Assembly (NCBI RefSeq): GCF_000002865.3
Contig: NW_001865083.1
Coordinates: 1-37,069, forward strand
DNA: 37,069 bases
Direction of reading: 5' to 3'
From: Monosiga brevicollis MX1
Lineage: Eukaryota
The notes under the pieces were generated by a model, which searched no databases, was not told the origin of the DNA, and saw nothing but the letters and a program-made list of their open reading frames with translations. Within the stretch, counting starts at the first letter, position 1, and every line of letters starts with the position of its first letter. The translations under genes were made by a program, and so were the position numbers. Below, in pieces: positions 1 through 31,536 of the stretch.

Positions 1-1516
1 TGCGATAAAAGTTGGGTGGTTTCCGTGAAGCACACGCAGCTGCAGATCGCGACGCATCGTCTCCAAACGGTACACCTTGCCCCCCACTTGCTGCCCCAGC
101 TTTCGAAACAGATGCTCCTGGTCCCCGATGCAAAGTGTGCCCGTCAACGCCACGCGTTTGATGTTGGCCCATCCGCCAGAACCCACACTGGCTGCGACTT
201 CGTCCATCACATCTCGGTAGCTGGCATCCGAGATGAGTGTGTGCGCCTCGTCCATCACCACGGTGCGGATGCGCTGAAAGCAGACCTTCCCGTGTAGCGA
301 TTCAGATCCCACGCGGACAAACATGTCGGTCGTAACGATGAGCACGTCCAGGCCATCTGCCACCTGTGTAGAGGGACCAAGCCATCGCTGGGCACTGTGA
401 CCTGCGCCTTGAAATCGCCGCAATAAATCGTTGGCCACGGCCACAAACGGCACAATCCACAGCACCGTACCGGCATGCGGGCGACAGCCCAGCTTGGGCA
501 GGGTACAAAATGTTTTACCCATGCCTGTCGGTGCAACAACAATCAGCCATCCATCCTCGGGCCGGTGCTGGTCAATGGCCGCAGCCAGGTCCAACTGTTC
601 TTGGCTGTTGAAACTGTGGCCCCAGGAGATGCTCGCCTGCTTGGCCAGCTGGGTCATGTAGGGTACGTCATGCTCGGCCCTCGTGTTCATGATGATACGC
701 CCGTTTGCTTCGGGCGAGAGGTCAGTCACCGGGTTCCAGCTGATGGGATAGCGAGCTTCCAATGCTTCTTGGTTCGCGGTCAACTCGGCCATGCTGCGCG
801 TGCGATCTAGTCCAAACAAAGCATGCCATTTTTTGCGAGGCCACTTGATGCATCAGTCGCGACGACATTTTGGTTTGCACATGGTCACTGGCTGTGCGCG
901 CATAGGCCCGCTGGGCCGTGTCCCCAGAGTGTTGAGGTTGAGTGTGGATCAGGCTGCCCAGGGCGCCGGTCGTCTCGGCCGACAGTCAGTTGATCACAAA
1001 CGTAGTCATCCAGAAGGTTGCGGCGTGTCGCCACGTGGCCACCCCCAGCTTTGGCCGATGCAGGTACGTGGTCATTTGTCGACGAAATGCCGCATAGATG
1101 GTGGCTGGGCTGACCATCGCCTGCAGGGGCGCAATATTGAAGAGGAGATGGCTGTTGTTGTAGTGGTTTCGAGCGTCCCGAACCTCGCGTCGCAATGTCA
1201 TCGTCTCGTCGTGGCTCATGTGGTCTTCATCCAGCTCGTCGTCGAGGAAATCTTCGTCGTCCTGCTCGGCATTGTGAAAGCCATTCTCGTCGTCGGGGGT
1301 TTTCAGCCCGCCCCGCTTTTGCAGCCAGCTGCTCAGCATGTGCTCCAGAGGCTTGCACAGCAGCAAATACATGAATATCAGCGTGCTGATTTCCTGGTCC
1401 ATGTATCGAAAGGTGTGCTGTTTGTTCAGAAGCAGCAGTTTTGGGTTTGCGAGGAAGCGGGTTGTGTCGAGAAGGCATTTTGAAAGAGGTTTGAGAGATA
1501 TGGTGGTGTCTCGAGG
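1..1516 (-). pseudogene. Telomere-linked RecQ-type (SF2 DEAH) helicase with upstream TLH-type domain; disrupted and running off the window edge
   Basis: Manual minus-strand translation of 828->1 (absent from the ORF track because it has no stop) gives Walker A VVAPTGMGKT (511-540), motif Ia LWIVPFVAVAND, motif II VVMDEAH (DEAH at 241-252), motif III ALTGT and ETMRRDLQLRV. The upstream frame (1516->829) reads RYMDQEISTLIFMYLLLCKP...LGVATWRHAATFW...QPQHSGDTAQRAYAR...VASQK/WHALFGL, resembling fungal TLH N-terminal regions as I recall them. There is an in-frame TGA at 986-988 and a 1-nt frameshift in the T6 run at 829-834. Confidence 0.85.
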
Positions 1517-1903
1517 TCAATTGAGCTAGCTGCGGTCGGCAAGCATTCACAGTGACCAGGCCAGATGCACTATTGGAAAGGCTCTACAGACGCACAGGGA
1601 AAGTGCAACCCGTGCCAGCCAGAGGTGTCACAACAAACAAACAAACAACAACGAAAAACCGTATACAAGCTTATCACACAAGGCTGTCTGCCAAGACATT
1701 GCAAAGTACACGAAGCACACGGGTCGACGCATGTGCCCCCTAGAGGGAAGGCACGCCTCAGTACGTCTAGGTGTGTATGTTAGTCAGGGGATGAAGTCAT
1801 GTCAGCTTCATAGGGGTTCCTGTGGTAAGACCCCTCGTCAATAACGCTGACCGTGTGCAAAAGCATCTGAACAAAGGATTTGCTGCTCACAACCAACTAG
1901 CAC

Positions 1904-4900
1904 CTAGTCCAGCACATCCTCATTGGCCGTGTAGTATACAACCAGCTCGGGATAAATTTGGGCATTGTCAAACACAATCACCTCATGGAATTCCCCAGAG
2001 GGTGTCGCGACGACCGAGTCATACCTGAAGAGAATTCAATGGCAAACGCAACAGTCGGATCAGAAGGTGGGCAAAGGCAACATGCAACAGATGGTCGATT
2101 TTGCCCAACGCACCGCTCGTTGTTGAGCGCATCGGGCAGGATCGGCGGGGCCAGGGCCCCCCTTCGTGGCGGCTCGTTCACAGAGGCCAGGCCAAGCAAA
2201 GCTCGCGTGATAATCAACATGCGCACCCCGTTGGATCCAGCTGTAGCGTACTGGTGACTCTAAAATCATGTGGCCGGCACAGTGTCAATACACTAGCGTT
2301 CAGAAGCTGAATTGACACAAAAACTCCACGTTACCACACCTTGCGGGGATCGTCGGCTAAATATACACCTCGGCCATACTTGTGGCCAGCATTGCTACCA
2401 GTAAAGCGAATATCTAGGCCCAGGCGCACGATCTTGTCGCGCAACCCTGGGAAGGGGCCGATGCCGTGGAGCAACAAACGCTCTTGACAGGATGTATTGC
2501 GAAGCAAAGCTGGAGAGCCCGAGAGCGCATCCCAGGCAGCCGTTTGGAGTTGATCATAGTGCTCCTGTCTTTTGATACGATGCAACATCTCGCGTCGCTT
2601 GGCACTGTAGCGCTCCCACAGCACGGGGTTTTGCACGCGCTCTACCCGTTGTACTGCGATATTGGCTGACCCCCACTCGTCAGTGCCCAGCTGCCTCAAA
2701 AGGTTAGCCACCTAGTCACACAATAAACGTATATTAGCAGGCTGTTGCAAAAGCGGTGCTTCATCGCCAACCAACGTACTTCTGGAATAAGCTCGGGCGC
2801 ATCACGCAAAACGTCAATGGCTGGCCCGACATGGGTGTCGACAAGTCGCTGAGCGTTTTGCACAATGCTGAGTAGGTGTGGACGTTGTTTTGGATCCGTT
2901 GCAAGCAAGGCGCGCGTTTCCTTGTACAATTTGCTCGTCGAATCGCACATCTGCAATGGAAAAAGGTACATGAGCTTAGAATGTGCTGGCCTTGCCTGAT
3001 CCAGCCGCACTGACCTCAGCAGCCAGATGCGGAAAGTTGCAGACAACATTTCCCGCTGGTAAAATCCAACTGCATTGATCCACAACCTCATCATCCCGTG
3101 GGTGAGCAGGTGGCACCGTTTGTGGGTACATGTAGGTGTTGTAGACAACACAGCCGAAGGAATAGGCATCTTGTGCTGGACGCGCCCCCACTCGGCCCCG
3201 GCCAAAAAGTACTTCGGGTGCCACATAGCCTGCCGTGCCCGACGATGCAGTGGCCGTGCATGGCAGCATGGTGGCTTCAGCAGCGGCTTTGGCAATGTCA
3301 AAGTCACCCAACCGCACGACGGGTTGATCCTCTGCGCCGTCCAGCATGACGTTGCTCAGCTTGACATCCCGATGCACCAGGCCCTTGCTATGCATAAACG
3401 CCAGGGCCGTGCGCAGCTGATTCATCATTTCCGAAATCACAGTTGAGGTGGCCATCTGGCGCGCCTTATCGAGCCACTGTCGCAGGTCTCCTTGCGAACA
3501 CCACGGCTGCACCAAATAGGCGCTGGGGTGGCCTTCCTTCATGTCCACAAGCGCGCCAAGGACCGGAACGATGTATGGGTGCTCAAGCTGGCGCATGGCG
3601 CGGAGCTCACGCAGAAATGTTCGGCACTGGTCCTGCTTATGTTGCCGAGCAAAAGCGTACTCCTTGACAGCCAAATCTTGTTCAGGACTCTCTGGAAGCG
3701 CGGCACGGGCCTTGTACACCTTGTGGTTTTGGTTGTCATGAAGGTCAAGCTGGCCCAGGCTGGAGAGCGTCAAACCTTGGTCTACTTCGGTCATGGCCTC
3801 CAAGATAAGGCTGGCTGGAAGGTCGGGACCAAGCACTGTGCGGAGCCGCGCTCCCAGCGTGCTTTGTTCAGGGTGCAGAAAGACCAGCAGGGCTGGGAAG
3901 TGCTGGTGCAACAGCTGGGCGAGCTCTGCGACGTGGTCCACTTGTGGCTGATTTGATACTTGTTGTCGTAAGGTATCCAGCCGTTCCTTCTTTTCTTGCA
4001 GCTTGTGTTCGAGGCTTGGACGCATATCCTCGGGCAAGAGCTGCAGTGCTGCGTTGACACCTTCAATCTCGGTCTGAAGTTTTGTCAGCTCTTCGTGGGC
4101 AGCCACCGATTCATCATCAACGTCTTGAGTCAAGCTGTTCACATGACTCATGCACGAGTCTAACACGGAGAGCGCCGTGGCCTGCCAGTCGATCATGTCT
4201 TGTAACTGCTGCAGCAGAGCTTGCGACTCGTGGTGTACAAACGCCAAGTACCAGTCCTGATGCTCGTAGTTTGGAGGTGGTTGCCACTGAGCAATTTGTT
4301 CGAGACCATTGTGCTCAAGCAGGCTCAGCTTCTCGTGAGCTTGGCACAGCTCCTCCCAGGCCTCGGGCAATGCCTCGGCTGGCGGCGGTGCACTTGCATC
4401 CACACATTGCGCGCATTGGCGAAGCGTCTCTACGCGATGAATTGTGTCGGTGGTTCCCGCTCTTGCCACAGCGCCCAGGGCATCGATCAAGGCCAACGCT
4501 AGGCACTTGAGGTTGCTGTTGGCGCTGGTGAGCAGCTCTTGACGCTTGGTTTCTACGTCGTGTAGCACGGCAATTTTGCCCAGGGCTGCCCCAAGGTTGG
4601 TGGGCGGCGTTTTGGGTGCGTTTGTCAGAGCGGTGGGTGGAGCGGGGCACGCTGCCAGCAGGGTCTGAAGCTCAAGAAGCACCGGCTTCAGCTTAAAACC
4701 AGCAGTGACATTGTGCATCTCTTGCAGCACTGATTTTAGACTGTCAGCGTTTGGGTCCAATTGCTTCAAGCGGCTGCTCAATGCTTCGGGTGCTTCCAGT
4801 GCTTGGTCGAGCGCGTTGAGGGCCTGGGTGGTTGTTGCCTGGAAGGCAACCCAGTCCATAGCAGGAAACTCTGATGGGGCTTCATCGATGGTCTTTTGGA

Positions 4901-7900
4901 TGTTAGCAACCGCCGCTGCAAGATTGGGATTTTCTTTGGCGGCACCGCTGATAAAGGCATCGAGGTGTGGTAGAGTATGGGTGGTGGTGCGCTCCGGCAG
5001 GAGTGGCCTGAGCCAGGTGTCCACCGCCACCACAACAGAGGCTGTGGTCTAAATAAGGATTGCGTGGTGCCATGCGTTGTGATGAGGTGGAATGAGGCTG
5101 TGTGGGTGATGGGGCAGTAAATGCATTTGGAATGCAAGAGGGGCAGGCCTACCTTGAGGGTCGGTGCAGGGCTGGGCAGGGGCGGCAGCCAGAGAAGACC
5201 CTTGTGAGCAGCAAAGACGAGCTTCAGCTTGTCGCCATACCCGTTGGCACATCCCAAATCGAGGGGTGATTCGCTTGCCTGAGAACATGGCCACAATCAA
5301 GCGATTGGAGCGTGTGAGATGGGCAGTGAAACGAGGGTTAAGTTGGGTGATGGGTGTTTGCTTTCTCATGTCAAAGGCAAGGCGACAATGCTTCAGAGTT
5401 CGCTGAAAACGCTAGACGCAAGAGCATTCGACGAACGGCTCAGACAGGTCGCAAGGGTTTGAAAGGAAGCGCGGTTGGAGAAAAAAAGTGGGGGCGCCGA
5501 GTGTGGCGGGGGTTAATTTGAAGAAATGGCCACCAAGAGCCGCTGGAGAGCGAGAGGCAGCGGCGTGGTGACAAGGAATGAAGAGGTACCCAGATTGAAG
5601 TCACAGCATCAGGAAAGGGAAGAGCGAGGCCAGCAGGCGGAAGAGACCAGCAGGGAACTGGGCGGAGTGCAAGGAGCACCGACAAAGCGTGGACGCAAAA
5701 CGGGGGAAGAAAAGGGATAGCGGGAAAGAAGACAAAGAGCCAGAGGTAGAACGGACGCGCACGGTGGGCAGGGTGTAGAGGAGCGAGGGTTTGGGCAAAG
5801 GCGACGAGCAGCGGGAGCAGGAGCAGCAACCAGAGGGGGTACAGGGAAGAGGGAAGTATTGTACTGACGTAGTTCTTGGTTTCAGTATCAACACCGTGCT
5901 CCAACAGCATCTCTACCACCTTGGCATGACCCTCAATGCAGGCCTTGTGCAGTGGTGTACAGCCATCCTGTAGGATGATGCATCAGCATGACGTACAGGT
6001 ACAACATCAACATCATTGTCATCTTCATCATGTGGTACAGGTGCATCAGGGGGAGGGGGAGGGGGAAAGTGGCAGGTACTGTTCTGACGTTGTCTTTGGC
6101 TTTGGCGTCAACACCGTGCTTCAACAGCATCTCCACCACCGTGACATGACCCTCAATGCAGGCCTTGTGCAGTGGTGTATAGCCACCCTGTGGGATGATC
6201 CATCAGCATTAGGTACATACAGGACATCATCATCATCATCATCGTCATCTTCATCATGTGGTACAGGTGCTTCAGGGGGAGGGGCGGTGGAAGTGGCAGG
6301 TACTGTTCTGACGTTGTCTTTGGCTTCGGCGTCAACATCGTGCTTCAACAGCATCTCTACCACCTTGACATGACCCTCAATGCAGGCCTTGTGCAGTGGT
6401 GTGTTGTCACCCTGTGGGATAATCCATCAGCATACAGGTACATCATCATAATCATCATCATCATCATCATTATCATCATGTGGTGCAGGTGTAGGAGGTA
6501 AGGGGGGGAAGAGGGAGGTTCTGTACTGACGTTGTTCTTGACTTTTGCATCAGCACCGTGCTTCAACAGCAGCTCCATCACCTTCACGTGGCCGCTAGCG
6601 AAGGCCGAGTGGAGTGGTGTACTGTCCTCCTGTGGGATAATGCATCAGCATTAGCAACGGCATCATCGTTATGAGGTATAGGTGCACCACCAAGGAGGAG
6701 CGAGGCGAAAAAAATAAGAATGGTCACTGAAAGCTGCTTGAGTGCGCGATGGCACGGGGTGGGGTGGTGCCCGGATTAAGTCACGACATCACCAAAAAAC
6801 AAGACGAGCAAGAAGCACCGACACAAAGTGTAAAAAAAAACAGGGGACGAGAAGGGGAAGTAGGAAAGGAGAAAAGAGCAGAATGCAAAGGCGGGAGGGG
6901 CAGGGCAAAGGCGACGAGCAGCGGGAGCAGGAGCAGCAGCCAAAGGGGGTGCAGGGAAGAGGGAGGTACTGTACGGACCTTGTTCTTGGTTTCAGCATCA
7001 ACACCGTGTTCCAACAGCATCTCCACCACCTCGACATGACCGCTAGCGCAGGCCAAGTGCATTGGTGTATCGCCACGCTGTGGGATGATGCATCAGCATG
7101 ACGTACAGGTACAGCATCATCACCATCATCATCACCATCATCATGGGGTACAGGTGCACCATCATAGGGGGGTAAAGGGAGGGACTGTACTGACGCTGTC
7201 CTTGGCTTCAGCATCAGCGTGCTTTAACAGCATCTCCACCTCCTCGACATGACCGCTAGCGCAGGCCTCCTGCAGTGGTGTACGGCCACCCTGTGGGGAG
7301 CATGCACCAGCATGACGTACAGGTACAACATCATTATCATCATCATCAATCATGTGGTACAGGTGCACCATCATAGGGGGGTAAAGAGGGGGAAAAGGGA
7401 GGTTCTGTACTGACGCTGTCCTTGGCTTCAGCATCAACACCGTGCTTCAACAGCACCTTCACCACCTTGACATGACCTTTTTTGCGGGCATAGTGCAGTG
7501 GTGTCCAGCCAGACTGTGGGATGATGCATCAACATGACGTAAAGGTACAGCATCATCATCAGCAGGTCTACCATCACAGATAGAGGAGGGGTAGTTAAAG
7601 GGGCAGGAGGTAGGTACTGTACTGACGTAGCCCTTAACTTCAGTATCAGCACCGTGCTTCAACAGCATCTCCACCACCTCGTCATGACCGTTAAAGCAGG
7701 CTCTGTGCAGTGGTGTACCGCCATACTGTGGGATGATGCAGACATGCAGTATAAGTCCCATGTTATACCATAACGTCACCCCATCCAGTGACATATTCAA
7801 AGTGTAACCAATATCACACGTCATTACATCAAACAGCATACATACCACATCACCTTTGTATTGGGCAGCATCTCGAATACGTTCATGGTCCCAGCTGGTC

Positions 7901-7971
7901 AACAGCTGCACCGCCAATAGGGGATCAGATGCGTTACACGCTTCGTGCAGCTGCCTTCCATCATCACTCAT
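1904..7971 (-). CDS. Ankyrin-repeat / coiled-coil / Ser-Thr protein kinase / PARP catalytic domain fusion protein (15 exons)
   Basis: Exons with GT-AG and compatible phases: 7846-7971 (alternative ATG at 8001), 7627-7725, 7415-7513, 7195-7290, 6979-7077, 6531-6629, 6313-6411, 6089-6187, 5869-5967, 5153-5278, 3015-5048, 2780-2950, 2340-2711, 2114-2259, 1904-2024. Ankyrin consensus G.TPLH.AC..GH..VVEMLLKHG.D...KD. Kinase motifs AVKE, RELRAMRQLEHPYIV, HRDVKLSNVML, DFD, GTAGYVAPE, DAYSFG, DPKQRP. PARP motifs VQNPVLWERY, LLHG, YGRGVYLADDPRKSHQY, RALLG, YDSV, HEVIVFDNAQIYPELVVYY. Confidence 0.88.
5869..7725 (-). repeat. Tandem array of eight exon+intron units, each exon encoding one 33-aa ankyrin repeat
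   Basis: Seven 99-bp exons and one 96-bp exon, all phase 0. The flanking introns are similar: donor GTCAG/GTCCG, (GAT)n tracts, acceptor CCCACAG/CCTACAG. Period is mostly ~210-225 bp. Confidence 0.93.

Positions 7972-8512: not shown

Positions 8513-8552
<40 letters not shown>
8438..8552. repeat. (GAA)n and (CA)n microsatellites
   Basis: (GAA)n at 8438-8464 and (CA)n at 8514-8552, read directly. Confidence 0.95.
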
Positions 8553-9025: not shown

Positions 9026-10360
9026 TTAGAGGCTGTGATCGAGGGTAAAGCCCCAGAGGTCTTCGAGGTGGGTCCGGTCTTCCAAGAGGCTGGCCAGGGC
9101 GTAGTGGAGGCCCGGGGCGCCGTTGCAAGAGGCGTGGGTGAGGTGCAGGGCGGCGTCACGCATGCGGAGGCGTTGCTGGTGACGGGCGTGGGCGGGTTGA
9201 TTGGCGAGGTGGTCGAGGAAGCGTTGGAAGCGGGGGGTGTTGGTGTCGTGTAGAAAGGTTTCGACCCAGCCGTGGTAGTCGACGTGGCGAATGTAGGGAG
9301 CAGGGCGAAGGGCGTTGGTGACAATGGGGATGCAGCCGACGCGCAGGGCATCGAAGAAGCGGGTGTCGCAGTTGGTGTCACCTCGGGGGGTGGGGCAGTA
9401 TTCGCATTGGGCGTAGAGGAGGGCGGATTCATCGGTGCGCAGGGAGGTGGCTGCAAGGTTGGCACGATCGGAGCGGCAGTTGCCCTGGACAAACGAGTCG
9501 TTGCGTTGGAGGAGGGCGTCGGCGACCATGGTGCGTTCGGCGTTGAGGAGGGTGCCTTGGAAGCAGAAGCGGTAGGGGCGGGGCCAGGCGGGATCAAAGG
9601 GGGCGGTGAGAATGGGAAAGTCGACGGGAAACTGGGGCAGGACGACGTGGTTGGCCAGGATGGGCTGGAGGTGCGGATCCCGGAGTTCGTGGGACTGCAT
9701 GTTCTTAATGTCCGGGGAGAGAAACTTGATGTGGGGGTAGTCGGCGAGGAGCTGGCGCATGGGGGCGCGGAGGTTGGTGCGGGCGGGAAAGGGGCGACGG
9801 CTGACGGTGAAAAACTGAAGGTGGGGAAAGCGGGCCCGTAGGGGGTCAAGGGCAAGGCGGGCAGCACGAGCAAAGTCCAGGTCGGGATTTTTGGCGCAGC
9901 GAGCGTCCTGGCAGTCGGCAGGAAAGGGAAAAAGGACGACATCGGCGTGGGCCGGGTCGGTGACGAGGGTGCGGGTAACATTGGCGCGAATCTGGTCATA
10001 GACTGGAAATTCGGCGCACTCGGCGCACCGAGGGCCTAGGGCTGATTCTAGCTCGGCATCGGCCACGTAGACTCTTGGCACGCGGACGCGCGGGTGCACC
10101 CGAGTGCAGTTGGGCGGACCCAGGCGGGCGAGCCCCGCTTGTCCATCGGGGCCGGGCTCGGAGAGGGAGCGCACATGCGCGTGCCGGCGCCATGCCGGGG
10201 TGCAGGTGAGGCGGTCATAGACAAATCGGATCGTTTCCAGCGGCGAACTGCCCTGGACCCAGGGACCAAGCGCAAACGCGACGAAGAGGAGCAGAAGCAG
10301 GAGCAAGGACAAGGATTTCAAAGCCCAGGCCGGCGAAGGCCGCCACCACGCCCGCCGCAT
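9026..10360 (-). CDS. Exostosin-family (GT47) glycosyltransferase, type II membrane protein, intronless
   Basis: ATG at 10360 (MRRAWW) precedes a hydrophobic anchor LSLLLLLLLFVAFAL. GT47 motifs: VYVAD, TDPAHADVVLFP, RPYRFCFQG, YCPTPRGDTNCDTRFFDALRVGCIPIV. Stop at 9026-9028. Confidence 0.88.
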   Translation of the reverse strand: MRRAWWRPSPAWALKSLSLLLLLLLFVAFALGPWVQGSSPLETIRFVYDRLTCTPAWRRHAHVRSLSEPGPDGQAGLARLGPPNCTRVHPRVRVPRVYVADAELESALGPRCAECAEFPVYDQIRANVTRTLVTDPAHADVVLFPFPADCQDARCAKNPDLDFARAARLALDPLRARFPHLQFFTVSRRPFPARTNLRAPMRQLLADYPHIKFLSPDIKNMQSHELRDPHLQPILANHVVLPQFPVDFPILTAPFDPAWPRPYRFCFQGTLLNAERTMVADALLQRNDSFVQGNCRSDRANLAATSLRTDESALLYAQCEYCPTPRGDTNCDTRFFDALRVGCIPIVTNALRPAPYIRHVDYHGWVETFLHDTNTPRFQRFLDHLANQPAHARHQQRLRMRDAALHLTHASCNGAPGLHYALASLLEDRTHLEDLWGFTLDHSL

Positions 10361-10529
10361 CTCAAGCGTGATGTGATGCCGTGAAAGGGGCGGGGAAGGG
10401 CGGGAATATATCAGCACGCCGTCCAATACCAGGCGCTACTACCCCGTCCGCCGCGCAGCCTGGTCTCGAGTCTGCCATTCACAGCGTCCGACGCTCAAAT
10501 ATTAAAAAATTAAAAATTAAAAATTTGAA

Positions 10530-10708: not shown

Positions 10709-11418
10709 AACTTTCAATGGTCTGTGTCCCTCTCGGTTTTCATTACTACATGTGGTAATTACGTCGTTTCTTGGTGCCTTTGTCAAACATGATTCTCGTC
10801 TTTCTCTGTTTGACTTCTTTTCTCACTACATGTAGTACTTACAGTTAACGTATCTCGTTGCCTCACACACACACTCACACACATCCAAGTTAAAAATAGC
10901 AAATCATGCCAATTTAAGCACACACGCCCAGTTGCGCCACATCTTGATGTTCATCACAGCTCTAAGATTTATGCTTTCAACCTCTAATTCTCTGAACCTT
11001 GATACACTCTCCTTCCTCTCTCTGCTTTCGCTTTTCTTTCCCCTTATACCAAAACCCCCTCTCAGACTCCCTCTCTATGATCATCCCCATTTGCTCCTAC
11101 CCTCTCAAAGTCACACGAGCAGCGCTCTTTTCTCTCACGCTGCCTCGCCGTGTGCGCGGCGGCCAGCTGACTCACATTTATCTCCGGCTTTTTCCTTCTG
11201 GATCTCGTCCTTTGCAAGCACCTTTCTCTTCTGCTTGGTCTGCGGTTGTTGTCAGGTCAGCTCCCTTGTTCCCTTGTTCCATGCATACCTTCCCTCTTAC
11301 CCCTTGCCTGCCCTTCTCACGTCCCAACCTGACCGTCCAATTCCAGCTAGCGCCTGGCTGCTCCCTGAAAACCTTCAACGCCTCCTCGCCTCAGCGCGCT
11401 CCAACACCAACAGACGAC

Positions 11419-13721
11419 ATGTGGGAACCGGTTTCAGATGGGCATTGGGTGCAAGAGCCAGAGTCCGACCCAGAATCCGAAACCAGCGATGCAGGGGAGG
11501 ACAGAGAAAAAGACCCAGCAAACACTCGCCCAACCGACCAGCACCCCCAGTCCACCGCGCCCGCCCTTAGCGCCCAACTGTATGCCACGTCGACTGCCGA
11601 CACGTTGATATGCGCGCTGGCTGCCAGCGCGGCCTCGGCTCGCGACACGCCTTTACACGTGTGCTTGGTGCTGGACCGCTCCGCCTCAATGTCCGTGCCC
11701 GTCACTGCACGAGATCGCGAGCATGCCATTGTCGAGTACGACATTACCGTCATGGACATGGTCAAGTATGCCGCCCGCGTGGCCCTCCACTGCCTTGCTC
11801 CGGGCGACCGCATCTCCGTCGTCTCCTTTGCTGATCAAGCTCGCATCGACGTACCCCCTACCACCCTCCCGAGCACCCCCACTACCACCACCACCACCAC
11901 CGGCCCCGCCGCCCAAGGCAACTCCGAACTGGCGGCGGTTGTCGCTGGGATCGACCAGATTGCCGCCGAGGGCCGCACCAACCTGTGGGCTGGCCTGCGC
12001 ACCGCCCTCACCCTCCTCCGCGAGCACCATGTGCCTGGAACCCACAACCTCTGCATTGCCCTCACGGATGGCGTGCCCAATTGCCACCCGGCCCTGGGCT
12101 ATGTCGAAGCCCAACGCGCCTTTCAAAACGACCCCGACTTTCGCTACGTTCTCAACACCATTCCATTTGGCTACGAAGACATGGACGCCAAGCTCCTTCA
12201 CCAGCTAGCCCTGCAAGGCGGTGGCATCATGGTCAACGTACCCGACTGCGGCATGGTCGGCACCGTGCTCACCAACATGCTGGCCAATGCCAAGACCACC
12301 ACCCATTGCGACCTGGCCCTGCATGACCCCCACCGCCTCCTCAACCGCCGACTCCCTTGCCGGGCCGATGTCGCATATGACCGCAAGCTTGGGCGCCTCG
12401 CTCTCGGTACCCTCCATGCCCAGCAGCCCCGCCACCTGGCCCTCGCCCTGGATCCTAGCCAGGCTGCCGCCCTTGCGCCTCTGACGACGAGGACGAGAGC
12501 GAGGACCTTGAGGATTTTGAGGACGTCGACCATCACACCGTTCTCAAGCTAGATCTGTCGCACCTTTTGACCCTGCGCGCCTTCAACGTACGCACGGGCC
12601 AGGTGGAAGAGGTGCCCGTGCCCCTTGCTGACCTTGAACTGCCCGAGTCCGAGGAAGCGCGGACGCTGCTGCGCGATGCTGTGTGTGCCGAGGTGCGCCA
12701 GCTCAACGTGCTGATGGCTGCGCGCCGCAATCACACGGCCAGTCAACAGCTTGCTGCTTTTCTGGAAGACCACGACGTACTGGACCTGGACCCCGAGCTG
12801 TTTATCGACCTGAACGAGCAGGTGCGCCAGGCCCTGGCCCCGAATGCTTACCGCCGCTGGGGTCATACCTACCTTCCCTCCCTTGTGATGGCCTACACCG
12901 CCCACCTTCGGCACAACTTTAAGGACCCTGGCGTGCAACATTTTGGCGGCTCCCGTTTTCGTCAGCTGGCTGCCCAGATGTCCGACATTTTCGACAGCCT
13001 CCCGGTGCCCCAACCTTCACTGCACACTGGACGCCGCCTCCCTTCCCTGGCCGTGCTCAACGATTGCCTGGGCGGCTGCTACACCGGCGACAGCCTTGTT
13101 ACCCTGGCCGACGGTACCGTCTGCCGTTGCGATGCCGTTCGGCCCGGCTTTTGTTTGGCCGGCGGGGCTCGCGTGGCGTACGTCATGGCCACGGCGTGCG
13201 TTTCCGGGCGCGAAGACCTCTGCCTTGTGGCCCCAGGGCTGAGCTTGACTCCCTGGCACCCCATTTGCCGCGAGAACGAGTGGTTTTTCCCCGCCGATCG
13301 CTATCCCATCCTGCGCAGTCAACGCTGCGCTTTCAAGTATAGCTTTATTCTCGATGCTCCACCGTCGCGCGGGGCCGTGGTTGTGGTCGGTGGCGTCTCC
13401 ACTGTGGCGCTCGGTGGTGCCGACCAAGCGCGAGCAGCCTTGCCCGCGGCTCGCGACCCCAACGCCGTGCTGGAACACGCCTTTTTTGGCACCACCGCCG
13501 TCCGCCGCCGCGTGGCCGAGCTTGCCCCGCTCTCCAGCAGCCGGGTTGCTGGCCGCTACCTCGTGCTTCAACCGCACGCCTTTATCCGCCCGACTCCCTC
13601 GGCTCCCATCTCGGACATTGACGCCCGCGCCGTTGTGCCCCTATGCATAACCCTCAACCCGGCTTGGCTTTTCAACTTTTCACCGCGGGCTGTCTCCCAG
13701 GCAGCTGTACCTTGCGCATAA
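11419..13721 (+). CDS. vWA-Vwaint-Hint (Vint-type) autoprocessing protein, interrupted by an apparent frameshift at ~12459-12480
   Basis: The first frame from ATG 11419 has vWA MIDAS CLVLDRSASM, ISVVSF, GRTNLWAGL and ALTDGVPN. The second frame (to 13721) has Vwaint YRRWGHTYLPSL...NFKDPGVQHFGG...FDSLPVPQPS, the Hint start GG|CYTGDSLVTLADG (Cys 13077-13079), block B LTPWHPI, YSFILD and the Vint tail HAFFGT. Confidence 0.87.
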
Positions 13722-14025: not shown

Positions 14026-14235
14026 TCTCCTCTCATAATCTCTCTCTCTCTAAATCTCTCCCCTCATGCTCTCTAAATCTCTCTCTCTGAATCCCTCTCT
14101 GAATCCCTCTCTGAATCTCTTTGCTCTCTCTTTGTCCCTTTCTCTCTCTCTTGGAATCTCTCTTTCTGTTGATCCCTCTTTCTGTTGATCCCTTTCTCTC
14201 TTTTTTTCATCACACGTACACTCGCTCTTCTCAAA

Positions 14236-14281
<46 letters not shown>

Positions 14282-14385
14282 AACTTTCTCTCTCTCTCTC
14301 CCTCTCTCCCTCTTCTCTCAACTTTCCTCTCTCTCTCTCACCTTTTCCTCTCTCTTCTCTCACGTTTTCCCTCTCTTCTCTCAAC

Positions 14386-14482
<97 letters not shown>

Positions 14483-14521
14483 TATTAAATTTTTCCTCTC
14501 TCTCTCTCTCTTCTCTCTCTC
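14026..14521. repeat. Long CT-rich microsatellite (pure (CT)n at ~14391-14480) immediately upstream of VPS8
   Basis: Direct reading. Confidence 0.95.
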
Positions 14522-14549
14522 AAAACGAAAACAGCTTCAGTGGAGGAGG

Positions 14550-17500
14550 ATGAGTGAGCGGCGCCGAGGCAACGGCAGCCGGGGCAGTGGATCAGAGGGG
14601 ATGGGAGGCAGTGGTGCTGGCATGGAGCGCGCTGGTTCAAATAGTGCCTCTACTCCTACTCGGGGGAGTGGTGGTGCAGATGATGATGAGGTAGATCCCC
14701 TTGTCTGCGCTGCCCCCTTGCGCTGCTCTCCAACCCCTTGCTACCTCTTTCGTCTCCTCCGCCTCCGCCGCCTCCTCCTCCGCCGCGCCTCTGCCTCCTC
14801 CGCGCTGTGCCCCCGCTGTTCTCACACCAAGATTGTGGCTTTTGGCGTACCCCGTGTAGTTTTTGCGAGAAGCCAAGCGGGCGGGCCATCGAACCAGCGC
14901 CACCCACGCCCCAGCTCTGGCCGCCATCCTGGCAGAGGAAGACGACGAGGTCGACCCTTTTCTCGCCGAACTGGCCGACAAGGGCGCTCAGCCCGCGGCC
15001 GCGCCTCACGTAACCAAAGCCGCACCCGAGCCTTCGGCCTCCACCGCCATGCTCGGGGCTGCGCCCCTTCAACAAAAGGCCCAGACAGCGCCCGTGGCAT
15101 CCCCGGCCAGCTCCACCCGCTCGAGCCGCGCCCCAACCAAGGGCGCCGCCTCTCCCGCCACACCCGCAAGCCGCAGCCGAAGCAACACTCAAACTTCCAC
15201 CGCCAGCTCTGCAGCTGGCAAGATCGTCAACAACGACAGCGTCAAGTCCTTGTGCGTGCCCCCGGCCTCCTTTTTTTTTTTTTTGCTCCGTCGTGTGCCC
15301 TCTCTCCTTTTCTTCCCACACACTTTGCCAGCCCCCACCTGACGTTTTTAAGACCCACCCCTTTTTCTCCCCAGGCGCCTCAAGCATGGACGCATTCTCC
15401 GCTCCCAGGCCCTCAGCCAGCTTTCTAGCAATCTGGCTGCCGGTCACATCAAGAGCGAATCTGGACGGCCGACAGCCCTGGTCAGCCACCGTCCCACCAT
15501 CACCTAGGCTTCCTTTGCCCCGCCCCAATCACGACGATTCATTCTCCCGCCCTCCCTCGCTACGGCAGGCCATTGGAGGCAAGAGTACTGTTGCCGTTGG
15601 CACTGCCTTTGGCCTGGTTCTTATCTATGAGCAACAGGTCTGCTCCCCGCGATCTCTGGCCGGCGCCCTGTCAGCCCTTTTCGACCCGCCACCTCACGTT
15701 TGTGGCGGCATACAGACCCTGCAACGCATGCTTGGCAACCTCGAGTCGACGATGCGCTCCGCTGTCACCGCCATCGATCTCGACGTGGAAGAATCTCGCG
15801 TCATCTGCGGTTACGAGAATGGTGTCATTGTTCGCTGGGACCTCGTCTCTGGCAAGCCACTCAACAACATTGAAAAGGTTTACAACAGCGGTACGTCATC
15901 CGTCCCGCTACCTTCTCTAGACCAGCTTGCCGTCCGTCAGCACACCATCTCCACGTGATCTTCGTCTCACCTCTTTGTATCCTTTCCCAACCCCAACCCC
16001 AACCCTGTCTTTCCATCATTGCGAAACAGCGGTCACGGCTCTGGCCTTGACACCAGATCGTCGCCTCGCCGTGTCGCTGAGCGCCGAGGGCTCGGCCTAT
16101 TCCCATGGGTTCAAAAAAGTCATGGGTGTCCGTGTTGTCGACAATCACTGCATTCTGTCTTCCGAGTACGTTCTGGCATTGCCCCACCTGCCAAGTGTAG
16201 CGCCCGCCCCCCTCATCCTACCGCGCATGTCCCCATATCCCGCAACAGTCAAGTCAAATGCTGCACACTTGCGGCTCTCAAGGTCCCTGAAGGCATGAGC
16301 TCGCCCGAAAACGTGATTGTTGCTCTCGGCTCGGCCAGCAAGGTAGGTTGTCGTCAGCCTCATCCGAGTGTAAGCCCGCCCTCCATCATTTTTTTACCCC
16401 TTTTCTTTGCGCAGGTCTTCGTTGTACGCCTCAAACCCTCCATGCATGTCCTGGCCACGCTGACCGCGAGCAACGATGATGGCATGGGCCTCGCCCTCTT
16501 GGACTGGTCTGTTCCGCGTCCCCCTATACGTGATGGGGGAAGCTTGCTTGCCCCAGCGTTCACGACACAGCTCCTCACCCGCCCATCTCCTTGCCCGACT
16601 ATCTGGCCATTCTCGCAGGACCTGGACCGAGGTGCGCTTTGACAACCGGACGCAAGTGCAGCCCATTCTCACCTACTCGTGGGGTCGCAAGGTCAATCTC
16701 CTCAATGTGGGCATGACGTCCACAACCCCGGGGGACAGTGATCTGGCCTGTGTCCCACTGGGTGCTGTTCATAACAACCGTGTCGGCCTGACCATGGTTC
16801 GATGGCTCAACAGCCGCATCATTCTAGCCATGGACCGCAATGTACGCCTTTTTGCTCGCACGCGCATTTTTGTGCACACAATGCCACTCTTCTCCCTTCT
16901 CTGGCACACCAAAAAGAAATATAATAAAGCGCAGGGTTTGATCATTCACTGGCTTGCCTTGCATGTATCCAGGAGCACGTGCTCGTCATTGACGCACGTG
17001 TAGCCCAAGTCGTTGACGTGCTGGACATGGCACCAGCCAAACTGGTCTTCAACCGACACTTTGCCAAGGTGCGTGGCCAGCCTCCACAACGGCACTTTGG
17101 CGATTCATCTGATCCAGCTTATGCTTCTGTATTGCTGCTGTCTCCTAAACTCTAGCGCCACATGCAAGAAGGCATGCGCGACTACACCTCGGCCCTGGCT
17201 GCTGGCTCTGAAGTGCTGATGGCTCTTGGCAGCGACGCCGTGCGCGTCATTCGTGTGGCTACGTACGAACCACACACGCACCCACTGCGCACTGCGCTGG
17301 TTCTTTGGGCTGGCAAAGAGAAGCAACTCACACGTGTCCGCATCTGTATGCCCGCGTTTATCCCGCGTAGCTGGACGGATCGTCTCTTGTACCTGGTCAA
17401 TAGCAAGGCGTTCCGCGCCGCCATTGAACTGGGTCTTGCCTTTTTCAACAACAAGGCCCTTGTGCCATATGGCCTGAGCTCTGACGATGAAGTCCGCAAA

Positions 17501-29200: not shown

Positions 29201-31536
29201 GACGCCAAGGGTGACGCGGAACGCCGTTCGATGAAGGACCGAGTTGTCGACGGCCAATTCGAGGGACTTGGCTTGCATGGTGGGCACCACTTGTAGGCCT
29301 GGGCTCTCGACACATCCGGTGGCAATGTCGTTGGCAGCGTACTTGCCACTGGGGCAGGCCTTGCAGGCGGATTGAGCATACTGGTCTTGGTAGTTGCCGG
29401 GAAAGGGGGAGGCGGAGCATGGTTTGCATTCGGTGGCCACCTCTGAGTTGCTGTAGAAGCCGGGACTGCAAGCTTGGCGGTTGGAGCGGGCACGGCCCGA
29501 GGCGTAATAGCCTTGGCCAACGTTCTTACAGCCAGACTGGCCATAGCTGTCTTGGTACTTGCCGGCATCACAGCTGGTGCAGCCGCCTTGGCCAGCCGAA
29601 CTGTAGGAACCCGGGCCACAGTTGTAGCAATACTGTCCCCATGGGCTATATGTACCGGCCGAGCACTGCTCGCAATCACCATTGACTGAATTGGTGACGC
29701 GATAGCCGACCTTGCAGGTGATGCCCTCATCGCAGCCTGCCGTTGTTGCAGCGCGAGGGCGGAGACAAGACGAGTCACGATGGCACGACGAACAGTGAGT
29801 CAAGACGTGAGGTGCTCGCGGTTGAAGCAAGCCGGGTCGAACGCACCGCAGTTGGAGTCGCATTCGCTATCGCACGACCAGCCGCAGCTTGAATCGCAGT
29901 CATCTAATCGTGAGGAAGGTAAAGGGGGGGGGGGGGAGGGATAATGAGAGATGTGTGAGCTGCAGGCAAAAGGTCGGGCACAAAGCAGTGAAAGACACCA
30001 GGGGAGACAGAAGCAAGAGGGGCAGCACGGACCATCGCAGTCGCAGCCGTTTTGGGAGCCACAGGAGCCGTCGAGCTGGCAATTGGGGCGCCAGGCAGAG
30101 CTTCGGGACTGGCGGAGTTGGCTGGCAAGGCGCATGGAGGCAAAGTGAAGCTTATCCAGGTTGTCGCAGTCGATGATGGAGGGGAGGGCGGCTCGGATTT
30201 GCGTGGCCGAGCGAGTGTAGCGGTTCAGTTTGTGGGTAGCACTCTGGGCGAGCTGCAGGACCGAGGCGGGGTGGTCACCGAGGACGAGGTAGGAGAGTCG
30301 TTGGCAGATGGAGGCCATTGGCTGTTCTTCGAGCGGGGCAGTGGCCAGATCAAACCAGATGAGGGCTTCGGGGCGACTTGTGGCGGCATTTTCGATGAGC
30401 TCGTTGAGTTGCTCGCAGAGGGTGTGGTCGTGTTCCACGTTGCAGGTTCGGTGGAAGAGCATCATCCAGGAATGGGAGAGGCGCTCGATGGAGACGGTCA
30501 GGTGGGTCGAGCCTGTCACCGAGCCGGTGGTGGCATAGTGGATGACGCCCTTTGGGATGTAAAGCAAGTCGCCGGGCAAGAGGGTGATGTGTTGGCAATC
30601 CATTTTGGCCAGTTGCCACTCCTGGTAGTTGGTGCAGCCTTGAATGTTGTGCTTGGCAATTTCCTGCCATTGGGCCTTGTGGGCGTCGCTCAGGTTTTGG
30701 CCGCCCGGGGGCTGGGGCGTGCAAAGGGTCCATTCCTTCTGGCCGTAAACTTGGACGACAAACACGTCGTAGGGATCCGTGTGTGGCTACACGTGATGTG
30801 ACGTGCAAAGGGAAAGATGACAAGTCGGATGAGGGCAAGCAAGGGAGAGAAAGAGAGAGAGAGAGCCAAAAAAAGATTAGGGAAAGGAGGGAAGGGGAAA
30901 AAGGGAAAAAAAAAAAAAAAAACGTACGGCCAAAGCTTGGGCGTTGGGGGGCGAGATGTAGGCATGAACGTTGGTCATGGTGGTAAAGAGGGCTTGGAGC
31001 TGGCGCTGGAGGATGGAATAGGGGCGGTCGGTGGCTTCTGTTTTGACGACAAAGGAGTTGCCGTCGGCCAGGAGGTTTTGGATCGTGTCGCTGGTGATGG
31101 CTTCGCCCGAGTCGGAGGCAATCTGGTCGAGGGCTTGAGGGTCAGCACCGCCTTGGGCTCGAACGGTGGTACCGGCCGACCAGAGATCAAACCATTCGGC
31201 GTAGTCGTCGAGCGAGGCGATCGAGTCGGTCAGGGCCTCGAGTTGAGCGAGGCGAGTCAAAAAGGTCTCGGGATCCCCGCGCTGGGCGAGGTGATACACG
31301 CTCTGCTCAAAGTGATTGAAAAAGAAGGTCTTGACGTTGGCTCGACCATCAAACAGCAAGTCCAAGACGCCCAGGGGCGGCGGCAGGGACGTTGCATTCA
31401 CCATACTCGAACCCTTGGCATCCTCGCCCGTGGTCTCTGCCACGACCACCGCCGCCAACTGCTGCAGCAGCAACAACAGCACCAGACCCAGACCCAGGCC
31501 CAGGCCGAGACGGGCCCCAACCCGCACACGGGCCAT
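23222..31536 (-). CDS. ~2340-aa type I membrane protein: signal peptide, JmjC/cupin 2OG-Fe dioxygenase, Cys/Asp-rich segment, TNFR/GCC2-GCC3-like Cys repeats, FN3-like, large beta-rich/Ig-like region, SEA-like domain, TM helix (12 exons)
   Basis: Exons 30928-31536, 30033-30786, 29847-29903, 27176-29736, 27013-27081, 26837-26906, 26587-26690, 26179-26472, 25495-26067, 25248-25343, 25059-25168 and 23222-24956 are all GT-AG with matching phases and sum to 7032 nt. JmjC: HAYISPPNAQALA|PHTDPYDVFVVQVYGQKEW...LLPGDLLYIPKGVIHYA. Repeats C..C..G.Y. TM AVEIVTLVLVLLAVVLLAVLVYHVVF followed by a basic SKHK. Confidence 0.82.

What the first reader, a model, noticed from the sequence alone, without database searches (positions are those of the whole stretch)
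5869..7725. One-repeat-per-exon ankyrin cassette array with variation focused on binding-surface positions
Seen: eight phase-0 exons with a near-constant scaffold but variable first triplets (YGG, SGW, GGR, RGD, EDS, GDN, GGY, DGC) and post-TPLH residues (RACFN, YARKK, EACAS, LACAS, SAFAS, KACIE x3). Established: these are the hairpin and helix-1 target-contact positions randomised in DARPins. Inference: symmetrical exons allow in-frame skipping, unequal crossover and conversion, giving a diversifying receptor repertoire comparable to fungal NLR repeat arrays.
Basis: partly seen in the sequence, partly recalled or inferred. Interest (0 to 1): 0.75.

Follow-up and report, generated by a model that had tools for sequence, protein, structure and literature searches.

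The report
Ankyrin exon cassettes, Monosiga kinase-PARP gene
A gene of the choanoflagellate Monosiga brevicollis encodes its ankyrin domain as eight similar exons of one repeat each, and the residues predicted to touch a target differ about three times more than silent sites, so the array is likely a fast-diversifying recognition module of a kinase-PARP protein.

Summary
On the minus strand, 7725-5869 contains eight phase-0 exons, seven of 99 bp and one of 96 bp. Each is one ankyrin repeat in exact register with Pfam Ank, and all have GT-AG borders. Spliced contigs confirm two junctions.

The exons belong to a gene of the Monosiga brevicollis ankyrin-kinase-PARP family that shows no frame break. 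The scan already described this family, and its one-exon-per-repeat layout, on another piece of this genome (e1-8068251, e1-8068253).

My own tests on this window:
- The introns are homologous too, so the array grew by duplication of exon-plus-intron units. One block junction and one mosaic exon can be traced.
- Variation sits at exon codons 1, 3, 8, 11, 12 and 33, the positions randomised in designed ankyrin libraries.
- At those codons dN is 0.76-1.13. Synonymous divergence is 0.24 and intron divergence 0.25-0.30.
- A tree-free test against intron sites gives p = 0.0003-0.03.
- Paralogue models carry 0-7 such repeats.

Not shown: exon skipping, strain polymorphism, the exon 8-9 junction, or any receptor function. 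There is no NOD domain, and repeat identity is below the fungal threshold.

The parts
7846..7971 (-). Exon 0: ATG plus 42 codons, an N-terminal cap-like half repeat (QLHEACNASDPLLAVQLL..). Phase 0 at its end.
   Evidence: The ORF and ATG are seen. The junction 7846|7725 (intron 7845-7726, GT..AG) is carried by a 99%-identity contig of run X10. There is no Pfam Ank hit, so the cap role is inferred from the pattern and from paralogue N-termini.
7627..7725 (-). ANK exon 1 (YGG..RACFN), 99 bp
   Evidence: Pfam Ank 40.1 bits.
7415..7513 (-). ANK exon 2 (SGW..YARKK), 99 bp
   Evidence: Pfam Ank 42.6 bits.
7195..7290 (-). ANK exon 3 (GGR, TPLQ, EACAS), 96 bp, one codon shorter
   Evidence: Pfam Ank 31.1 bits.
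6979..7077 (-). ANK exon 4 (RGD, TPMH, LACAS), 99 bp
   Evidence: Pfam Ank 40.6 bits.
6630..6978 (-). Long intron 4 (349 nt), chimeric. Its 5' part is homologous to the 5' part of intron 8, and its 3' end is the standard short-intron 3' end. This marks a block-duplication junction.
   Evidence: Local alignment of E4+I4 with E8+I8 gives 197 nt at 85% (7075-6878 against 5965-5768). The sequences were read. Unspliced contigs cover 6547-6930.
6531..6629 (-). ANK exon 5 (EDS..SAFAS), 99 bp
   Evidence: Pfam Ank 32.3 bits.
6313..6411 (-). ANK exon 6 (GDN..KACIE), 99 bp
   Evidence: Pfam Ank 37.0 bits. The junction to exon 7 is seen in 3 runs.
6089..6187 (-). ANK exon 7 (GGY..KACIE), 99 bp
   Evidence: Pfam Ank 38.9 bits. 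Intron 6312-6188 is spliced out in X7, X9 and X10.
5869..5967 (-). ANK exon 8 (DGC..KACIE), 99 bp, a mosaic. Nt 10-66 are 98% identical to exon 6; nt 67-99 are 73% identical to exon 6 but 88% to exon 4.
   Evidence: Fisher p = 0.0004 for the switch against exon 6. Pfam Ank 39.3 bits.
5279..5868 (-). Intron 8 (590 nt, inferred). A contig of run X7 treats 5437-5777 as exon and splices it from a donor at 5436 to exon 9.
   Evidence: Joints 5277>5436 and 5048>5153 appear in X7 only. The E8-E9 junction itself was not seen. It is inferred from phase and from paralogue models.
5153..5278 (-). Exon 9: 42 codons, a C-terminal cap-like half repeat (SPLDLGCANGYGDKLKLVFAAH) plus a Pro-rich linker. Phase 0 at both ends.
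   Evidence: Both of its borders are supported by X7 joints. It is homologous to the ..TPL[DE]..GHGDKLEPVFAAH segment of paralogues. There is no Pfam hit.
3015..5048 (-). Exon 10: about 440 residues with no Pfam match and a helical look, then a protein kinase domain
   Evidence: Pkinase 3.7e-35. 76-82% identity to paralogues over 684-686 residues. Exon end.
1904..2950 (-). Exons 11-14 (approximate borders 2950-2780, 2711-2340, 2259-2113, 2023-1904): linker and PARP catalytic domain, ending at a stop codon.
   Evidence: PARP PF00644 at E = 2.4e-05, 24.4 bits, below the 26.7-bit cut-off, on one exon alone. Colinear tblastn with paralogues. Open frames and the stop codon. Intron 2339-2260 is spliced in X7.

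Best explanation
This is the N-terminal ankyrin domain of a transcribed Monosiga brevicollis ankyrin-kinase-PARP gene with no frame break, encoded as eight phase-0 exons of one repeat each that arose by tandem duplication of exon-plus-intron units, and its predicted target-contact codons have likely been driven apart by diversifying selection. Shown: the exon structure, the Ank register, the homology of the introns, a chimeric intron and a mosaic exon that record recombination between units, two spliced junctions, and a 2.5- to 5-fold excess of nonsynonymous divergence at the canonical binding-surface codons over both synonymous and intron divergence. Inferred: N-cap, eight repeats and C-cap would stack into one solenoid. 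Each exon would contribute one row of about six variable residues (exon codons 33, 1, 3 on the hairpin; 8, 11, 12 on helix 1) to its concave face. Gain, loss or exchange of whole units by unequal crossing-over or conversion would keep the reading frame because every unit is symmetric. The array would recruit a variable partner to the kinase and PARP domains downstream. What the partner is, and whether the family serves non-self recognition, is untested.
For: Structure: 8 of 8 exons have GT-AG borders and phase 0, and 8 of 8 pass Pfam Ank in register. Transcription: the E0-E1 junction appears in 1 of 4 runs and the E6-E7 junction in 3 of 4 runs, in contigs of at least 99% identity. Gene context: the downstream exons are colinear with paralogues through kinase and PARP to a stop codon, with no frame break. 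24 M. brevicollis paralogue models have E <= 1e-134, and the next hits have E >= 1e-16. Unit duplication: six short introns align with 53 invariant columns of 135 and mean column identity 78%. Intron 4 shares its 5' part with intron 8. Exon 8 is a mosaic. Selection, pooled over 28 pairs by Nei-Gojobori: whole exon dS 0.24 and dN/dS 1.05. DARPin set dN 0.76, N5C set dN 1.13, remaining codons dN 0.14-0.17. Intron K is 0.25, or 0.30 for the interior. Tree-free minimum changes at codon positions 1+2: N5C set 17 over 10 sites against intron 66 over 114 (p = 0.0003), or interior 58 over 85 (p = 0.0018). DARPin set 15 over 12 (p = 0.009 and 0.032). Youngest contrast: exons 6 and 8 differ at 1 of 57 nt in codons 4-22 but at 5 of 9 nt in codons 1-3. 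Family-wide: 28 unique paralogue repeats are most variable at positions 8, 11, 12, 1, 3 and 33 (Spearman 0.67 with this array, p = 1.7e-5). Repeat number per model is 0-7, against 8 here.
Against: The sample is small (8 repeats, 5-6 codons per set). Pooled pairs are not independent. The DARPin position list is recalled from memory; only the N5C list was read in a paper. With its own few synonymous sites the DARPin set gives only dN/dS 1.54. Intron divergence may be underestimated, because MAFFT places gaps to maximise identity. Conversion between units gives different parts of a unit different ages, so dN above dS here could partly reflect selection against homogenisation and not new adaptive substitutions. 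These positions are the most variable in ankyrin repeats generally (PMC4308713), so the pattern alone is generic. The E8-E9 junction was not seen, and one X7 contig starts inside intron 8, so the physical link of the array to kinase-PARP in the mRNA rests on homology. No spare or inverted exons were found. No evidence on function was found.
Confidence: 0.6

Rival explanations
1. This is an ordinary ankyrin scaffold without adaptive diversification. The surface positions are simply unconstrained, while gene conversion and purifying selection keep the framework, its silent sites and the intron ends alike. The apparent dN above dS would then be an artefact of mosaic ages and a small sample.
For: The same positions have the highest entropy in natural ankyrin repeats in general (PMC4308713). 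Conversion or recombination between units is evident (exon 8 mosaic). Exact 33-44-nt framework words are shared with far more abundant contigs. Whole-exon dN/dS is 1.05.
Against: Neutral sites cannot exceed the neutral rate. Surface dN of 0.76-1.13 is 2.5-5 times both dS (0.24) and intron K (0.25-0.30). Neutral conversion tracts would not spare the same 3-9-nt islands in every pair and in 28 paralogue repeats. Exons 6 and 8 differ at 5 of 9 nt against 1 of 57 nt.
Confidence: 0.2
2. The array belongs to a decaying or selfish multi-copy segment, in which ankyrin-kinase-PARP and a helicase are copied together, possibly in subtelomeric or mobile DNA. Copy turnover and relaxed selection, not function, would explain the variety in number and sequence.
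For: The downstream helicase ORF is 96.8% identical over 278 residues to the C-terminal part of paralogue model P0069, and P0070 carries the same tail. Many paralogue models lack ankyrin, kinase or PARP parts.
Against: This copy is open through 15 exons to a stop codon and is spliced in RNA-like contigs. Framework codons have dN below dS (0.59-0.81), so the framework is under constraint.
Confidence: 0.1
3. The ankyrin exons and the kinase-PARP exons are, at least in part, separate transcripts. A promoter or cryptic exon inside intron 8 would give an ankyrin-less kinase-PARP mRNA, and the array might end by read-through after exon 8.
For: An X7 contig of 509 nt runs 5777-5437 | 5278-5153 | 5048-5007 at depth 19. 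An X11 contig covers 5476-5666. No contig with the E8-E9 junction was listed. The frame of exon 8 stays open to a TGA at 5442-5440.
Against: Paralogue models join the last repeat directly to the cap-like segment homologous to exon 9. Exons 8 and 9 are both phase 0. Contigs break at repeated words, so a missing junction is expected. The intron-8 contig may be partly processed pre-mRNA, and unspliced contigs also cover intron 4.
Confidence: 0.1

Closest known systems
Ectocarpus ROCO-LRR and NB-ARC-TPR candidate pathogen receptors (Zambounis et al. 2012, PMC3341825; abstract and section 15 read)
   Same: Each repeat is encoded by its own symmetric exon. Repeat number differs between recent paralogues. 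There are signs of diversifying selection on the repeat domain. The family is lineage-restricted with birth and death of copies.
   Different: The repeats here are ankyrin (99 bp), not LRR (72 bp) or TPR. The effector part is kinase plus PARP, not ROCO GTPase or NB-ARC. No spare, inactivated or inverted exons lie in the introns of this locus. The organism is a choanoflagellate, not a brown alga.
Fungal NLR repeat domains with high internal conservation, including ANK arrays of Podospora (Dyrka et al. 2014, PMC4986451; abstract and passages read)
   Same: Ankyrin arrays with a near-constant framework. Variable and positively selected positions lie in the inner helix and the hairpin of the concave face. 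Recombination between repeats occurs, and repeat number is variable.
   Different: No NACHT or NB-ARC domain is present. Repeat identity here is 52-85% at the amino-acid level, so only the E6-E7 pair reaches the 85% criterion. The fungal repeats lie within one exon, whereas here each has its own exon with a co-duplicated intron. Polymorphism between isolates is untested here.
Repeat-protein genes formed by duplication of intron/exon modules (Street, Rose and Barrick 2006, seen only as summarised in PMC4585158). The human ankyrin genes with 99-bp repeat exons are recalled, not checked.
   Same: Exon length equals the repeat unit, introns are in the same phase, and the units are local duplicates.
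   Different: Here the duplicated introns are still 78% alike, so the duplications are recent, and the surface codons have diverged faster than silent sites.
Tankyrase (ANK-SAM-PARP; PMC2964712, passages read). ANK plus PARP in M. brevicollis is noted in one sentence of PMC4245714.
   Same: N-terminal ankyrin repeats combined with a C-terminal PARP catalytic domain.
   Different: There is no SAM domain. A helical region of about 440 residues and a protein kinase lie in between. There are 8 repeats plus caps, against 15-18 in tankyrase. PMC2964712 confines true tankyrases to animals.
Designed ankyrin libraries (ANK-N5C, PMC4308713; DARPins, position list recalled)
   Same: The naturally variable codons here (exon 33, 1, 3, 8, 11, 12 = repeat positions 2, 3, 5, 10, 13, 14) are the positions those libraries randomise to create binders.
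   Different: Repeat position 33 (exon codon 31), randomised in DARPins, is an invariant Lys here. This is a natural gene family, not a design.

Membership tests
Ankyrin repeat (Pfam PF00023) | Match to the Ank profile above the gathering score | tested here: met
   8 of 8 exons, 31.1-42.6 bits against the 21.1 cut-off. Exon residues 1-33 align to profile positions 1-33. Exons 0 and 9 (the caps): 0 of 2 hits.
Ankyrin repeat (Pfam PF00023) | 33-residue unit with a TPLH motif and a GH..V..LL..GA framework | tested here: met
   7 units of 33 residues and 1 of 32. TPLH in 6, TPMH in 1, TPLQ in 1.
Repeat genes built by intron/exon module duplication (Street et al. 2006, class 2, via PMC4585158) | Exons equal to one repeat unit or a multiple of it, all in the same phase | tested here: met
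   99 bp seven times and 96 bp once, all phase 0.
Repeat genes built by intron/exon module duplication (Street et al. 2006, class 2, via PMC4585158) | The introns between units are themselves homologous | tested here: met
   Six short introns: 53 of 135 columns invariant, mean identity 78%. TRF periods 212 and 224.
Fungal NLR-type highly conserved repeat arrays (PMC4986451) | A NOD (NACHT or NB-ARC) domain in the same protein | tested here: not met
   Pfam on the 690-residue downstream ORF finds only kinase families. Paralogues' precomputed Pfam lists hold no NACHT or NB-ARC.
Fungal NLR-type highly conserved repeat arrays (PMC4986451) | Internal repeat identity of 85% or more over at least 100 residues | tested here: not met
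   Pairwise amino-acid identity is 52-85%. Only exons 6 and 7 reach 85%, over 33 residues.
Fungal NLR-type highly conserved repeat arrays (PMC4986451) | Repeat-number polymorphism between isolates | not testable with these tools
   No whole genome is held. Joints between repeat units in DNA-like contigs have sides of only 20-30 nt and cannot be told from paralogues.
Fungal NLR-type highly conserved repeat arrays (PMC4986451) | Positive selection at concave-face positions | tested here: met
   dN 0.76-1.13 against dS 0.24 and intron K 0.25-0.30. Tree-free p = 0.0003-0.03. The sample is small.
Ectocarpus-type exon-shuffled receptor repeats (PMC3341825) | One repeat per exon | tested here: met
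Ectocarpus-type exon-shuffled receptor repeats (PMC3341825) | Noncoding, inactivated or inverted repeat exons inside the introns | tested here: not met
   nhmmer finds only the 8 coding copies; the next hit has E = 0.083. A six-frame TP[LM]H scan finds none on the plus strand of the locus.
Ectocarpus-type exon-shuffled receptor repeats (PMC3341825) | Different repeat numbers in close paralogues | tested here: met
   0-7 repeats in 24 public paralogue models, against 8 here. Several of those models are partial or read introns as coding, so the counts are approximate.
Tankyrase (PARP clade 4, PMC2964712) | 15-18 ankyrin repeats, a SAM domain and a PARP domain | tested here: not met
   8 repeats plus 2 cap-like exons. 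No SAM hit, and a kinase domain is present instead.

The most novel reading that the evidence does not exclude
Monosiga brevicollis, a close unicellular relative of animals, keeps a germline repertoire of ankyrin-kinase-PARP sensors. Their binding faces would be diversified by exon-cassette duplication, exchange between paralogues and positive selection, and possibly by in-frame cassette skipping. That would be an NLR-like non-self (prey, bacterial or viral) recognition system that signals by phosphorylation and ADP-ribosylation and evolved independently of NOD-based receptors.
Probability: 0.2. Interest if true: 0.85.

Novelty: new variant of a known kind. Interest (0 to 1): 0.6.

Why it matters
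Repeat arrays with a fixed framework and fast-changing contact residues mark recognition proteins in fungi, brown algae, plants and jawless fish. Finding the same signature in a choanoflagellate, tied to a kinase and a PARP instead of a NOD module, would give a testable candidate for how the closest relatives of animals sense varied partners or enemies. It also gives a clean natural example of symmetric exon-plus-intron units acting as the unit of repeat gain, loss and exchange. This locus has the longest array among the family models I examined, shows no frame break and is transcribed, so it is a good copy for experiments. My searches of the held library found no description of this cassette structure. 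One review sentence notes ankyrin plus PARP in M. brevicollis (PMC4245714).

Tried and rejected
- Genome-wide harvest of 99-bp exons: impossible, because no genome is held for this window. dN/dS therefore rests on the 8 exons here, with protein-level support from paralogues.
- RNA evidence: no RNA holder is listed. Four coded runs labelled 'RNA?' carry GT-AG skip joints, and I treated them as RNA.
- Exon skipping: no junction specific to this locus was seen. Joints such as 6187>7417 and 7511>7201 have sides of about 30 nt and depths of 80-490, against 20-33 for this locus's own spliced contigs. I judged them to be exon junctions of paralogues. Contigs cannot show rare isoforms.
- Repeat-number variants: joints between repeat units in DNA-like contigs (5618>6895, 5789>6957, 6039>6497 and others) have sides of 20-30 nt. 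I did not take them as polymorphism.
- Summed contig depth over the ankyrin exons is 100-200 times that of single-copy contigs. This is only a hint of many copies, not a copy number.
- Two-gene reading (a second gene starting at exon 5): rejected. No in-frame ATG precedes exon 5 (sequence), and its acceptor is the standard one.
- Membrane-anchor reading of the open frame after exons 4 and 8 (LWLLLLLPLLVAFA): rejected as intron sequence, since paralogues splice straight on. The E8-E9 junction itself is not shown.
- Spare or inverted exons: none found.
- Immune induction: the M. brevicollis STING paper (PMC8592570) has no mention of ankyrin or PARP in its main text. Only 2 small supplementary files are held, without these gene ids, so its expression tables, which I could not see, may still bear on this.
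- The search of earlier findings near this place and by sequence gave nothing.
- Rows dropped: of 41 full-length paralogue repeats (30 unique), 2 unique ones were dropped before the entropy count. One was an intron read-through starting MMMM, and one was a partial match starting GIGTSF. That left 28. Exon 3, which has 32 residues, was left out of this window's own entropy column but was kept, with a gap codon, in all codon counts.
Full report
**What is there**

The finding lies on the minus strand. Between 7725 and 5869 there are eight exon-like units, each preceded by ..cccacag (..cctacag before E8) and followed by gtcag/gtccg:
- E1 7725-7627
- E2 7513-7415
- E3 7290-7195
- E4 7077-6979
- E5 6629-6531
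- E6 6411-6313
- E7 6187-6089
- E8 5967-5869

Seven are 99 bp. E3 is 96 bp, one codon shorter, and reads TPLQ. Each exon alone passes Pfam Ank (31.1-42.6 bits against a cut-off of 21.1), and the exon start coincides with the profile start. One exon is therefore one repeat in the Pfam register. A nucleotide profile of the exons finds only these eight copies in the window (E <= 1.5e-26; next hit E = 0.083).

**Gene model**

An ATG at 7971 opens a 126-bp exon 0, an N-cap-like half repeat. Downstream of E8 lies a 126-bp exon 9 (5278-5153). It encodes a C-cap-like half repeat homologous to the ..TPL[DE]..GHGDKLEPVFAAH segment of paralogues. Every exon length from the ATG to exon 9 is a multiple of three, so all these introns are in phase 0.

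Exon 10 (5048-3015) encodes about 440 residues with no Pfam match and then a protein kinase. Exons 11-14 carry a PARP catalytic domain and end at a stop near 1904, with no frame break.

Contigs of coded runs laid at 99% identity or more show GT..AG joints at E0-E1 (1 of 4 runs) and at E6-E7 (3 of 4 runs). In run X7 they also show joints at 5436|5278 and 5153|5048. Run X7 also splices intron 2339-2260.

The E8-E9 junction was not seen. The X7 contig that reaches exon 9 starts inside intron 8 (5777-5437). The link between array and kinase-PARP therefore rests on phase and on paralogue models.

**Organism and family**

The 690-residue ORF has 24 relatives named Monosiga brevicollis MX1: 19 at E <= 2.6e-134 in the near-length search and 5 at E <= 2.2e-292 in the longer search. 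All other hits are at E >= 1.5e-16 and match the kinase only. None of the 24 exceeds 86% identity, so this copy has no near-identical public model among the hits. Fifteen of the 24 carry precomputed Ank families and 16 carry PARP.

The scan had already noted this family (e1-8068251) and its one-exon-per-repeat layout with fast-changing surface residues (e1-8068253), both on another piece of the genome. Those notes gave me the Ectocarpus comparison. I repeated the tests on this window's own DNA.

**How the array grew**

The introns are homologous as well.
- Six short introns (113-125 nt) align with 53 invariant columns of 135 and 78% mean identity.
- Each carries a (GAT)n microsatellite.
- Tandem Repeats Finder reports periods of 224 and 212, which equal exon plus intron.
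- The 349-nt intron 4 is chimeric. Its 5' part matches the 5' part of intron 8: 197 nt at 85%, counting the adjoining exon. Its 3' end is the standard short-intron end. That marks the junction of a block duplication.
- Exon 8 is a mosaic. Nt 10-66 are 56/57 identical to exon 6, while nt 67-99 are 24/33 identical to exon 6 but 29/33 to exon 4. Its downstream intron is 90% like intron 4 (Fisher p = 0.0004).

The array was therefore built and reshaped by unequal exchange or conversion between exon-plus-intron units.

**Where the variation sits**

Amino-acid variety is concentrated at exon codons 1, 3, 8, 11, 12 and 33. In the usual repeat numbering these are positions 3, 5, 10, 13, 14 and 2.
- The ANK-N5C library paper randomised positions 2, 3, 5, 10 and 13 as the beta-turn and helix-1 binding surface (PMC4308713, passages read).
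- The DARPin list (2, 3, 5, 13, 14, 33) is from memory.
- Random codon sets matched the observed concentration in 1 of 100000 trials (N5C set) and in 208 of 100000 trials (DARPin set).
- The same positions top the entropy ranking of 28 unique repeats from paralogue models (Spearman 0.67, p = 1.7e-5).

The same paper notes that these are the high-entropy positions of natural ankyrin repeats in general. The pattern by itself is therefore generic.

**Is it faster than neutral?**

Pooled Nei-Gojobori estimates over the 28 pairs:

| Site class | Estimate |
|---|---|
| Whole exon dS | 0.24 |
| Whole exon dN/dS | 1.05 |
| dN, DARPin set | 0.76 |
| dN, N5C set | 1.13 |
| dN, remaining codons | 0.14-0.17 |
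| Intron K, all columns | 0.25 |
| Intron K, interior | 0.30 |

Intron divergence agrees with dS. The surface codons have thus diverged 2.5 to 5 times more than either neutral proxy, while the framework has diverged 0.6-0.8 times as much.

Pairs are not independent and recombination forbids a single tree. I therefore counted the tree-free minimum number of changes per site (states minus one) in six units and compared it with intron sites:

| Set (codon positions 1+2) | Changes / sites | All intron (66/114) | Interior intron (58/85) |
|---|---|---|---|
| N5C | 17/10 | p = 0.0003 | p = 0.0018 |
| DARPin | 15/12 | p = 0.009 | p = 0.032 |

The youngest contrast points the same way. Exons 6 and 8 differ at 1 of 57 nt in codons 4-22 but at 5 of 9 nt in codons 1-3.

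Nucleotide identity between exons (72-93%) exceeds amino-acid identity (52-85%) throughout.

Caveats:
- The sample is small.
- With its own few synonymous sites the DARPin set gives only 1.54.
- MAFFT may understate intron divergence.
- Conversion gives parts of a unit different ages, so part of the signal may be selection against homogenisation and not for new changes. Either way, selection for variety at the contact face is needed to keep 3-9-nt islands of difference between conserved flanks in every pair.

**Repeat number and dispersal**

Public paralogue models carry 0-7 repeats that match a profile of this array. The 7 come from an evidently chimeric model, and the largest contiguous run is 5. 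Eight is the most among the 24 models examined. Several models read introns as coding sequence (VSTVPPSS..DDDDD), so these counts are approximate.

The same cassette also occurs in M. brevicollis models with other architectures (P0145, P0152, P0171).

**What is not shown**
- Exon skipping is possible by arithmetic but was not seen. The cross-unit joints at 95% likeness have short sides and much higher depth than this locus's own contigs, and I read them as paralogue junctions.
- Strain polymorphism could not be tested, because no genome is held.
- There is no NOD domain.
- Only one repeat pair (E6-E7, 85%) reaches the 85% criterion of fungal highly conserved arrays (PMC4986451).
- No spare or inverted exons of the Ectocarpus kind are present (PMC3341825).
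- Function is unknown. The M. brevicollis STING paper does not mention these genes in its main text, and its expression tables were not available to me.

**Verdict**

'Receptor repertoire' and isoform diversity remain inference.

It is a new variant of a known kind. The closest cases are the Ectocarpus exon-per-repeat LRR/TPR receptors and the fungal NLR ankyrin arrays. The scan had already found the phenomenon on other DNA of this genome. My literature searches found no printed description of the cassette structure.

Noticed in passing
window 1-1396, minus strand: A DEAD/ResIII helicase-like gene lies directly downstream of the PARP exons. It is 96.8% identical over 278 residues to the C-terminal part of paralogue model P0069, and P0070 carries a similar tail. 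The kinase part is only about 82% identical to P0069. The ankyrin-kinase-PARP gene and the helicase seem to be copied together, perhaps as a segmental, subtelomeric or mobile unit.
   Followed up: partly
window 5437-5777, minus strand (inside intron 8): A 509-nt contig of run X7 (depth 19) treats this stretch as exon and splices it from a GT donor at 5436 to exon 9 and then to exon 10. An X11 contig covers 5476-5666. It may be an alternative first exon giving an ankyrin-less kinase-PARP transcript, or partly processed pre-mRNA.
   Followed up: partly
window 6225-6257, 6441-6479, 7115-7144, 7329-7353: Each short intron of the array carries a (GAT)n/(CAT)n microsatellite of variable length. In several public paralogue models these introns are read as coding sequence (VSTVPPSS..PHDDDDD), so those models appear to be mis-spliced.
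   Followed up: partly
window 7417-7453, 7638-7677, 6108-6140: Exact 33-44-nt words of the ankyrin framework occur in contigs at depths of 260-3900, while this locus's own spliced contigs have depths of 20-33. This is a hint that many paralogues sharing these words are expressed.
   Followed up: no
proteins P0145, P0152, P0171 (not in the window): The same ankyrin cassette (..GHVKVVEMLLKHGVDAKAKD..) occurs in M. brevicollis models with other architectures: one with a signal- or receptor-like N-terminus, one with a tyrosine-kinase-like domain, and one with ankyrin repeats only. This suggests spread of the cassette between genes.
   Followed up: partly
window 10996-13721, plus strand: Two adjoining open frames encode VWA, Vwaint and Vint (Hint-type) domains, that is, a VWA-Hint protein of the hedgehog-related Hint superfamily.
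   Followed up: no
window 9026-10435 (-), 29800-30786 (-), 35011-36174 (-), 33425-33973 (-), 27104-29866 (-): Neighbouring genes: a GT47 exostosin-like glycosyltransferase, a JmjC/cupin protein, a nitronate monooxygenase, a histone-fold (H3-like) protein, and a large Cys-rich protein with an ephrin-receptor-like repeat.
   Followed up: no
window 8514-8552 and 14115-14700: An (AC)19.5 microsatellite, and long CT-rich tracts that read as (SL)n in one frame.
   Followed up: no
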